From Escherichia coli (lineage in GTDB: Bacteria > Pseudomonadota > Gammaproteobacteria > Enterobacterales > Enterobacteriaceae), in the NCBI RefSeq assembly GCF_050920415.1, contig NZ_CP169309.1: DNA of 64,000 nt. The stretch is one strand, 5' to 3'. The position numbers were made by a program, and so were the translations under genes. The notes under the pieces were generated by a model. That model saw only the letters and a list, made by a program, of their open reading frames with translations. It had not been told where the DNA came from and did no database searches. Positions 8,820-8,919 of this stretch are shown here, one piece after another. Each line of letters opens with the position of its first letter. The first letter of the stretch is position 1.

Positions 8820-8919
<100 letters not shown>

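What the first reader, a model, noticed from the sequence alone, without database searches (positions are those of the whole stretch)
8820..8848. Other REP units in the window contain the exact 11-mer this IS has inserted into
The disrupted site reconstructs as atcaggc-ct-ac. The same 11-mer atcaggcctac occurs intact at 8838..8848 (plus strand) and at 3045..3055 (minus strand), and one-mismatch versions (atccggcctac) occur at 2998..3008 and 8885..8895. These are candidate secondary insertion sites if the bridge-RNA guides are specific for this REP subtype.
Basis: partly seen in the sequence, partly recalled or inferred. Interest (0 to 1): 0.35.

Follow-up and report, generated by a model that had tools for sequence, protein, structure and literature searches.

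The report
Known IS621 target sites in REPs

Summary
ATCAGGCCTAC lies intact at 8838-8848 (+) and 3045-3055 (-).

The 11-mer is the 3' tail of Z-type REP units. The finding's span, 8820-8848, is exactly one such REP. The IS is IS621 (IS110 family, minus strand, 37321-38597). It splits a third REP of this type as ATCAGGC-CT|IS|CT-AC.

Durrant et al. 2024 showed that the IS621 bridge RNA directs insertion into ATCAGGCCTAC: 129 of 173 genomic sites in BL21(DE3). Position 4 is read through an rG:dT wobble.

Both empty sites in this window carry IS621 at the same nucleotide in other strains: livF-ugpB in 11, and panM-livJ in 8, of 5,426 complete E. coli genomes. Both also appear in that paper's list of natural targets. 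In about 30 independently sampled IS621 loci, 26 sit in ATCAGGCCTAC.

ATCCGGCCTAC sites are used rarely. There are two natural examples with an unchanged guide, and none at the three such sites in this window.

The recombinase of this copy carries a one-base G4-to-G3 frameshift. This may be an assembly error.

The parts
8820..8848 (+). Z-type REP unit GCCTGATGCGCTGCGCTTATCAGGCCTAC between livF and ugpB. Stem arms are GCCTGAT (8820-8826) and ATCAGGC (8838-8844). The empty IS621 target 11-mer is at 8838-8848.
   Evidence: Occupied by IS621 in 11 of 5,426 genomes (L002). Identical to published natural target seq391.
8885..8918 (-). Inverted Y-type REP partner of the same BIME. Its tail ATCCGGCCTAC is at 8885-8895.
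   Evidence: Not occupied in any complete genome.
3045..3073 (-). Z-type REP unit between livJ and panM. The empty IS621 target 11-mer is at 3045-3055.
   Evidence: Occupied in 8 of 5,426 genomes (L003 and L028). One mismatch to published seq210.
2975..3008 (+). Y-type REP partner. Its tail ATCCGGCCTAC is at 2998-3008.
10520..10548 (-). Further REP with an ATCCGGCCTAC tail (10520-10530), between ORFs 9156-10472 and 10570-11457.
37319..38599 (-). IS621 copy. The interior is 37321-38597 (1,277 nt). The CT core is present at both ends (38598-38599 and 37319-37320).
   Evidence: annotated as an IS110-like element IS621 family transposase, present in 2,244 of 5,426 genomes.
38598..38624 (-). Left part of the disrupted Z-type REP (GCCTGATGCGCTACGCTTATCAGGC-CT). 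The complete hairpin stays on the left-end side of the IS. The remaining AC of the 11-mer is at 37317-37318.
37249..37281 (+). Y-like REP partner (tail TATTGGCCTAC) of the BIME that carries the IS.
38406..38583 (-). Bridge RNA region, 178 nt. LTG plus core AUCGGGCCU is at 38526-38534. RTG GUAG is at 38503-38506, with the preceding UGC at 38507-38509. The donor guides are ACAGUAUC at 38453-38460 and CAAG at 38418-38421.
   Evidence: guides identical to the published wild-type bridge RNA (file 5); fold energy z = -4.0.
37653..38405 (-). Recombinase ORF truncated at 250 aa (326 aa when intact). The cause is a one-base contraction of a G run (G4 to G3) at about 37665-37667.
   Evidence: Pfam PF01548 + PF02371.

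Best explanation
The 11-mer ATCAGGCCTAC is the 3' tail of Z-type REP units, the repetitive extragenic palindromes of E. coli. Its first seven bases form the 3' arm of the REP stem, and CTAC lies at the foot of the stem. It is also the natural target of IS621. The bridge RNA is encoded in the left end of the element. Its target-binding loop pairs AUCGGGC-CU with the bottom strand of ATCAGGC-CT, with rG:dT at position 4, and pairs GUAG with CTAC on the top strand. The recombinase then exchanges strands at the CT core, so the IS ends up flanked by CT on both sides. Every REP in the genome with this tail is therefore an equivalent target. The REPs at 8820-8848 and 3045-3073 are simply two unoccupied members of a pool of well over 100 such sites. 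Shown here: the anatomy, the identity of the guides, and natural occupancy of these exact sites in other strains. Taken from the literature: RNA-guided recombination and the wobble pair.
For: The junction anatomy is ATCAGGC-CT|IS|CT-AC. The IS is IS621, with DEDD_Tnp_IS110 and Transposase_20 domains. The guides in this copy are identical to the published wild-type bridge RNA, whose stated loop specificity is ATCGGGCCTAC. Site 8838 is occupied in 11 genomes and site 3045 in 8 genomes out of 5,426, at the exact nucleotide. I examined 52 IS621 copies at about 34 distinct loci. In the roughly 30 loci not picked with site-directed queries, 26 are in ATCAGGCCTAC, and one each is in ATCGGGCCTAC, ATCAGTCCTAC, ATCATGCCTAC and a non-REP ATCGGGTCTAT. 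Both Z1-like and Z2-like REP bodies are used, so the shared tail, not the REP body, is the common factor. Durrant et al. 2024 (PMC11208160) report 173 insertion sites in BL21(DE3): 144 in REPs, 129 equal to ATCAGGCCTAC and 2 equal to ATCGGGCCTAC, together 96.21% of insertions, with rG:dT at position 4. Their natural-target list contains all three sites of this window.
Against: The recombinase ORF of the window copy is frameshifted. As assembled, this copy could only move with recombinase supplied by intact copies. The guide does not match the A-type tail perfectly and depends on a wobble. ATCCGGCCTAC, which would give rG:dG, is occasionally used in nature with an unchanged guide (L030, L031), so the 11-mer is a strong preference and not an absolute rule.
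Confidence: 0.93

Rival explanations
1. The IS recognises the REP hairpin as a structure, through its protein, as proposed for other REP-associated elements. On this view the shared 11-mer is only a by-product of REP conservation.
For: Nearly all insertions lie in REPs, and always at the same place, the 3' foot of the stem. Tobes and Pareja 2006 considered protein recognition of REP palindromes.
Against: A recurrent non-REP target, ATCGGGTCTAT inside a FUSC-family gene, has no hairpin but matches the guide at 9 of 11 positions, including G at position 4 (L011, L022, L036, L047). Y-type REPs have the same fold, and the window holds as many of them as of Z-type tails (3 each, counting the disrupted one). 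Yet they are absent from the sample of about 30 loci. Published reprogramming of the loop redirects insertion.
Confidence: 0.03
2. The sites are sequence matches only and are not used in vivo, for example because bound proteins or local context occlude them.
For: Both sites are empty in this window. Each is occupied in only about 0.15-0.2% of complete genomes.
Against: Natural insertions occur at exactly these nucleotides in several strains. Low occupancy per site is expected when a median of 5 matching places per IS621-carrying genome (partial copies included) is spread over more than 100 equivalent sites.
Confidence: 0.02
3. The copy in this window is a dead, non-autonomous element with a truncated recombinase. 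The empty sites are then at risk only from other, intact IS621 copies, or from this copy if it is mobilised in trans.
For: A G4-to-G3 frameshift gives a 250-aa product. The identical 250-aa product is encoded at three other loci of the closest genome. That genome also has intact copies at uspB-pitA, narP-ccmH and glpD.
Against: The closest genome has G4 (intact) at this very locus and differs from the window by only one substitution and this indel over 2.2 kb. That assembly carries many 'frameshifted' annotations in unrelated genes. The indel may therefore be a homopolymer consensus error.
Confidence: 0.35

Closest known systems
IS621 (IS110 family) bridge-RNA-guided recombination into REP tails. 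Choi, Ohta and Ohtsubo 2003; Durrant et al. 2024; Hiraizumi et al. 2024.
   Same: The element is the same: 97.6-100% nucleotide identity to annotated IS621. The guides, CT core, donor ends and target ATCAGGCCTAC are the same. The specific REPs of this window are in the published natural-target list.
   Different: Nothing in kind. This copy carries the non-reference bridge-RNA allele, with three changes in the distal hairpin of the target-binding loop between the two guides and two changes near the 5' and 3' ends of the RNA. It also has a possible frameshift in the recombinase.
An IS621 relative with target-binding-loop specificity ATCCGGCCTAC (Durrant et al. 2024, Supplementary Data 2; 245 natural targets).
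   Same: It targets the REP tail that matches the window's one-mismatch sites exactly.
   Different: Its bridge-RNA sequence finds no match in 5,426 complete E. coli genomes, so it is not relevant to this strain.
ISPpu9 and ISPpu10 of Pseudomonas putida (IS110 family elements inserted in REPs).
   Same: ISPpu9 is an IS110-family element inserted into REP sequences. ISPpu10 is reported as a bridge-RNA recombinase of the same family (abstracts listed).
   Different: Different host, REP family, guides and bridge-RNA architecture. Not examined here.
IS1397 and ISKpn1 (IS3 family), which also insert specifically into REPs.
   Same: REP-specific insertion in enterobacteria.
   Different: Different transposase family and no bridge RNA. 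The insertion position within the REP is different by my recollection; I did not test this.

Membership tests
IS621 / IS110-family bridge recombinase element | High nucleotide identity to IS621 over the whole length (about 1.28 kb). | tested here: met
   1,274-nt query, 100% coverage at 97.6-100% identity to features annotated as 'IS110-like element IS621 family transposase'.
IS621 / IS110-family bridge recombinase element | Recombinase with an N-terminal DEDD (RuvC-like) domain and a C-terminal Tnp (Transposase_20) domain. | tested here: met
   PF01548 and PF02371 on both the 250-aa product and the 326-aa relatives. The C-terminal 76 aa are out of frame in the window copy. That bears on autonomy, not on family membership.
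IS621 / IS110-family bridge recombinase element | Element flanked by a duplicated CT core. | tested here: met
   CT on both sides.
IS621 / IS110-family bridge recombinase element | No terminal inverted repeats. | not tested
   The ends read TGTATTATCC... and ...AACAGTAT and show no evident inverted repeat, but I ran no repeat search on the element.
IS621 / IS110-family bridge recombinase element | Non-coding bridge RNA in the left end, with guides matching the target (LTG, RTG) and the donor (LDG, RDG). | tested here: met
   AUCGGGCCU, UGC-GUAG, ACAGUAUC and CAAG are identical to the published wild-type bridge RNA (file 5); structured, z = -4.0. Rfam returned no match in this region.
IS621 / IS110-family bridge recombinase element | RNA-guided recombination activity. 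| not testable with these tools
   Rests on Durrant et al. 2024.
REP / BIME of E. coli | Imperfect palindrome of 29-34 nt, with head GCC[G/T]GATG and tail [A/C]GGCCTAC. | tested here: met
   GCCTGAT and ATCAGGC are exact reverse complements.
REP / BIME of E. coli | Extragenic position, arranged as inverted pairs of two REP types separated by a linker. | tested here: met
   between livF and ugpB, between livJ and panM, and downstream of glpD; each Z-type unit faces a Y-type unit 36 nt away at two of the sites (35 nt at the reconstructed glpD site).
Natural IS621 target site (claim made for 8838 and 3045) | Exact 11-mer with a CT core, in the orientation that fixes the direction of the IS. | tested here: met
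   The opposite-strand copy of ATCAGGC, from the other stem arm, is followed by AA, not CT.
Natural IS621 target site (claim made for 8838 and 3045) | Found occupied by IS621 at the same nucleotide in independent genomes. | tested here: met
   Published list.
Natural IS621 target site (claim made for the ATCCGGCCTAC sites) | Found occupied by IS621 at the same nucleotide in other genomes. | tested here: not met
   best coverage 59%, where a true junction would give about 72%. The same 11-mer is used at two other loci (L030, L031). Between 40 and about 90 genomes carry such a junction.

The most novel reading that the evidence does not exclude
The G3 frameshift allele may be real. It is present in the window's glpD copy and in three identical copies at other loci of the closest genome. 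If real, a recombinase-defective IS621 that keeps its ends and bridge RNA has spread to at least four REP sites by using recombinase from intact copies. That would be a natural non-autonomous 'guide plus ends' hitch-hiker. Separately, natural insertions into ATCCGGCCTAC with an unchanged guide imply that an rG:dG mismatch at position 4 is tolerated in vivo.
Probability: 0.25. Interest if true: 0.3.

Novelty: already known. Interest (0 to 1): 0.1.

Why it matters
It matters little beyond annotation. The finding correctly rediscovers, from raw sequence, the published target rule of IS621. It is useful as a check that the two REPs are genuine polymorphic IS621 insertion sites. If occupied, they could alter expression at livF-ugpB or livJ-panM, and they could serve as substrates for IS-IS rearrangements. 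No open question is opened or closed.

Tried and rejected
(1) A concatenated three-junction negative control was hard to read, because the tool joined the three left-end pieces. I used it only as 'no place exceeds 59% coverage'.

(2) Three 70-nt REP-type/left-end junction queries gave counts of 1,549-2,019 genomes at 80% coverage or more. These counts are inflated by gapped cross-alignment between REP types. The spread listing shows that identity drops to 94% by about rank 93. I did not use the counts. I claim only '40 to about 90 genomes' for Y-type junctions.

(3) The ATCCGGCCTAC-guided relative from the Durrant supplement has no match in E. coli complete genomes.

(4) The Rfam gathering scan found only RyhB and nothing in the IS left end.

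(5) Choi et al. 2003 (PMC166490) is not held in the library. I cite it only through other papers.

(6) To estimate genome-wide 11-mer density I sampled 100 kb of the closest genome. It held none of the motifs, and one of the two stretches was mostly prophage. I therefore made no genome-wide count.

(7) I suspected an IS-IS rearrangement at L051. It is the same locus as L050 with a different linker allele.

Full report
**Observation**

The window is E. coli chromosome: liv operon, ugp, and on to glpD. Gene names come from RefSeq annotation of matching loci.

With up to one mismatch there are 7 hits against 0.60 expected from shuffles. A random sequence of this length would hold 0.03 exact copies.

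**What the motif is**

The excess comes from REPs.

- The finding's span, 8820-8848, is exactly one REP unit: GCCTGATGCGCTGCGCTTATCAGGCCTAC.
- Its partner REP, of the other type and carrying the ATCCGGCCTAC tail, lies inverted at 8885-8918.
- The same two-REP arrangement is present at 2975-3008 / 3045-3073.
- It is also present around the IS, at 37249-37281 / 38598-38624.
- In my recollection of the Gilson/Bachellier nomenclature, the A-type tail belongs to Z-type units and the C-type tail to Y-type units. I did not check that nomenclature here.
- ATCAGGC is the 3' arm of the REP stem, the reverse complement of GCCTGAT, and CTAC lies at the foot of the stem.
- On the opposite strand, the other stem arm also reads ATCAGGC. 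It is followed by AA, not CT, so each REP offers the target in one orientation only.

**The IS**

- The element lies on the minus strand. Its interior is 37321-38597 (1,277 nt).
- It is flanked as ATCAGGC-CT|TGTATTATCC...AACAGTAT|CT-AC.
- It is IS621. A full-length query matches features annotated 'IS110-like element IS621 family transposase' in 2,244 of 5,426 complete E. coli genomes, with a median of 5 places per genome.
- Its product carries PF01548 and PF02371.
- The 178 nt upstream of the ORF (38406-38583, minus strand) correspond to the published bridge RNA. The guides are identical: AUCGGGCCU, UGC-GUAG, ACAGUAUC and CAAG. [quoted passage not shown]
- The region folds better than shuffled controls, z = -4.0.

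**Test of the interpretation: the two empty sites**

I joined 200 nt of window flank ending in ATCAGGCCT to the first 200 nt of the IS and searched all complete E. coli genomes.

| Site in window | Location | Genomes with a single-piece, 100%-coverage match (of 5,426) |
|---|---|---|
| 8838 (+) | livF-ugpB | 11 |
| 3045 (-) | panM-livJ | 8 |
| glpD site carrying the IS | glpD | 11 |

Fetched examples show both junctions at the predicted nucleotide, with the downstream sequence of the window:

- LD22-1 (L002): ...GCTTATCAGGCCT|IS|CTACTGGGTGAGTTGCAATATATTG...
- S1-SRL-01-C (L003)...GCTTATCAGGCCT|IS|CTACAACGTGTG....

**Test of the interpretation: where other copies sit**

It is not met.

- In the closest genome, NZ_CP169399.1, the 2.2 kb around the IS differs from the window by one substitution and one indel.
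- All six copies I could locate there sit at the same REP-tail site: gyrB-yidB, tkt-adjacent, fadA-adjacent, uspB-pitA, narP-ccmH and glpD. Five read ATCAGGC-CT...CT-AC. The glpD copy has TT in place of the left CT.
- Across 52 copies at about 34 distinct loci, I set aside the four loci picked with site-directed queries. The remaining sample of about 30 loci breaks down as follows:

| Target 11-mer | Loci |
|---|---|
| ATCAGGCCTAC | 26 |
| ATCGGGCCTAC (perfect guide match) | 1 |
| ATCAGTCCTAC | 1 |
| ATCATGCCTAC | 1 |
| ATCGGGTCTAT (non-REP, inside a FUSC-family gene) | 1 |
| ATCCGGCCTAC | 0 |

- Both long (Z1-like) and short (Z2-like) REP bodies are used. The shared tail is therefore the common denominator.

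**The one-mismatch sites**

- None of the three ATCCGGCCTAC sites in the window is occupied in any complete genome. The best coverage was 59%, where a true junction would give about 72%.
- The motif is not excluded, however. Copies with an unchanged AUCGGGCCU guide sit in ATCCGGCCTAC between yahG and yahI (L030) and between araJ and mak (L031).
- Between 40 and about 90 genomes carry such a junction.
- The published natural-target list for this loop also contains a few such sites (seq53, seq54; seq834).
- Mechanistically, A at position 4 gives rG:dT (published). C would give rG:dG; this is my inference.

**Comparison with what is known**

All of this is published.

- IS621 was described as inserting at a specific site in REPs (Choi et al. 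2003, cited).
- Durrant et al. 2024 (PMC11208160) showed that the bridge RNA specifies the target. In BL21(DE3) they mapped 173 insertion sites: 144 in REPs, 129 equal to ATCAGGCCTAC and 2 equal to ATCGGGCCTAC. Together these made up 96.21% of insertions.
- The same paper reports that 3' GCA after the target favours insertion, through an extended RTG.
- The window's sites are followed by GTG (occupied), TGG and AAT. None has the extended match.
- Their Supplementary Data 2 lists 834 natural targets for this loop. It includes the exact 50-mer at window 8822-8871 (seq391), the 3045 site with one mismatch (seq210) and the reconstructed glpD site (seq14).

**Caveat on this copy**

- The recombinase ORF stops at 250 aa because a G4 run is G3 at about 37665-37667.
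- The same G3 allele is present at three other loci of NZ_CP169399.1, while that genome's glpD copy has G4.
- Either a defective copy has spread in trans, or these are homopolymer consensus errors.
- That assembly shows many 'frameshifted' annotations in unrelated genes, so I cannot decide between the two.

**Verdict**

The novelty is nil: this is the known natural target rule of IS621. Interest is low.

Noticed in passing
window 37665-37667 (minus-strand G run); L001/L004, L005, L006 versus L052, L007, L008: The IS621 recombinase is frameshifted by a G4-to-G3 contraction, giving 250 aa instead of 326. The identical allele is at three other loci in the closest genome, NZ_CP169399.1, whose glpD copy is intact. 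Either a defective copy was mobilised in trans, or this is an assembly error. That assembly has many 'frameshifted' annotations.
   Followed up: partly
L052 (NZ_CP169399.1, glpD copy), left junction: The only substitution between the window and the closest genome over 2.2 kb falls in the left core dinucleotide. That genome reads ATCAGGC-TT|TGTATT where the window has CT.
   Followed up: no
L030 (yahG-yahI, NZ_CP062871.1) and L031 (araJ-mak, NZ_CP110511.1): Natural IS621 insertions lie in Y-type REP tails (ATCCGGCCTAC) although the bridge-RNA guide is unchanged (AUCGGGCCU). This implies occasional tolerance of a position-4 rG:dG mismatch.
   Followed up: partly
L011, L022, L036, L047: A recurrent non-REP IS621 insertion lies at ATCGGGTCTAT, at the end of or inside a FUSC-family gene. 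It is shared by at least four assemblies and is also in the published target list (seq4).
   Followed up: partly
window 38503-38534 (minus strand) versus the published bridge RNA: There are two bridge-RNA alleles. The window type reads CCUUAGGUUUUCAACC between LTG and RTG, where the published wild type reads CCUUGGGUUCUAACC. The G-to-A change turns a possible G-U pair into A-U in the small hairpin. Both alleles occur at ATCAGGCCTAC sites.
   Followed up: partly
window 10014-10024 (-): ATCATGCCTAC lies inside the ugpB coding sequence. The same 11-mer is an occupied IS621 target in a REP elsewhere (L021, L025), so this is a possible gene-disrupting off-target site.
   Followed up: no
window 17092-17156 (+): The RyhB small RNA gene. 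It is the only Rfam match in the window at gathering threshold (83.1 bits).
   Followed up: no
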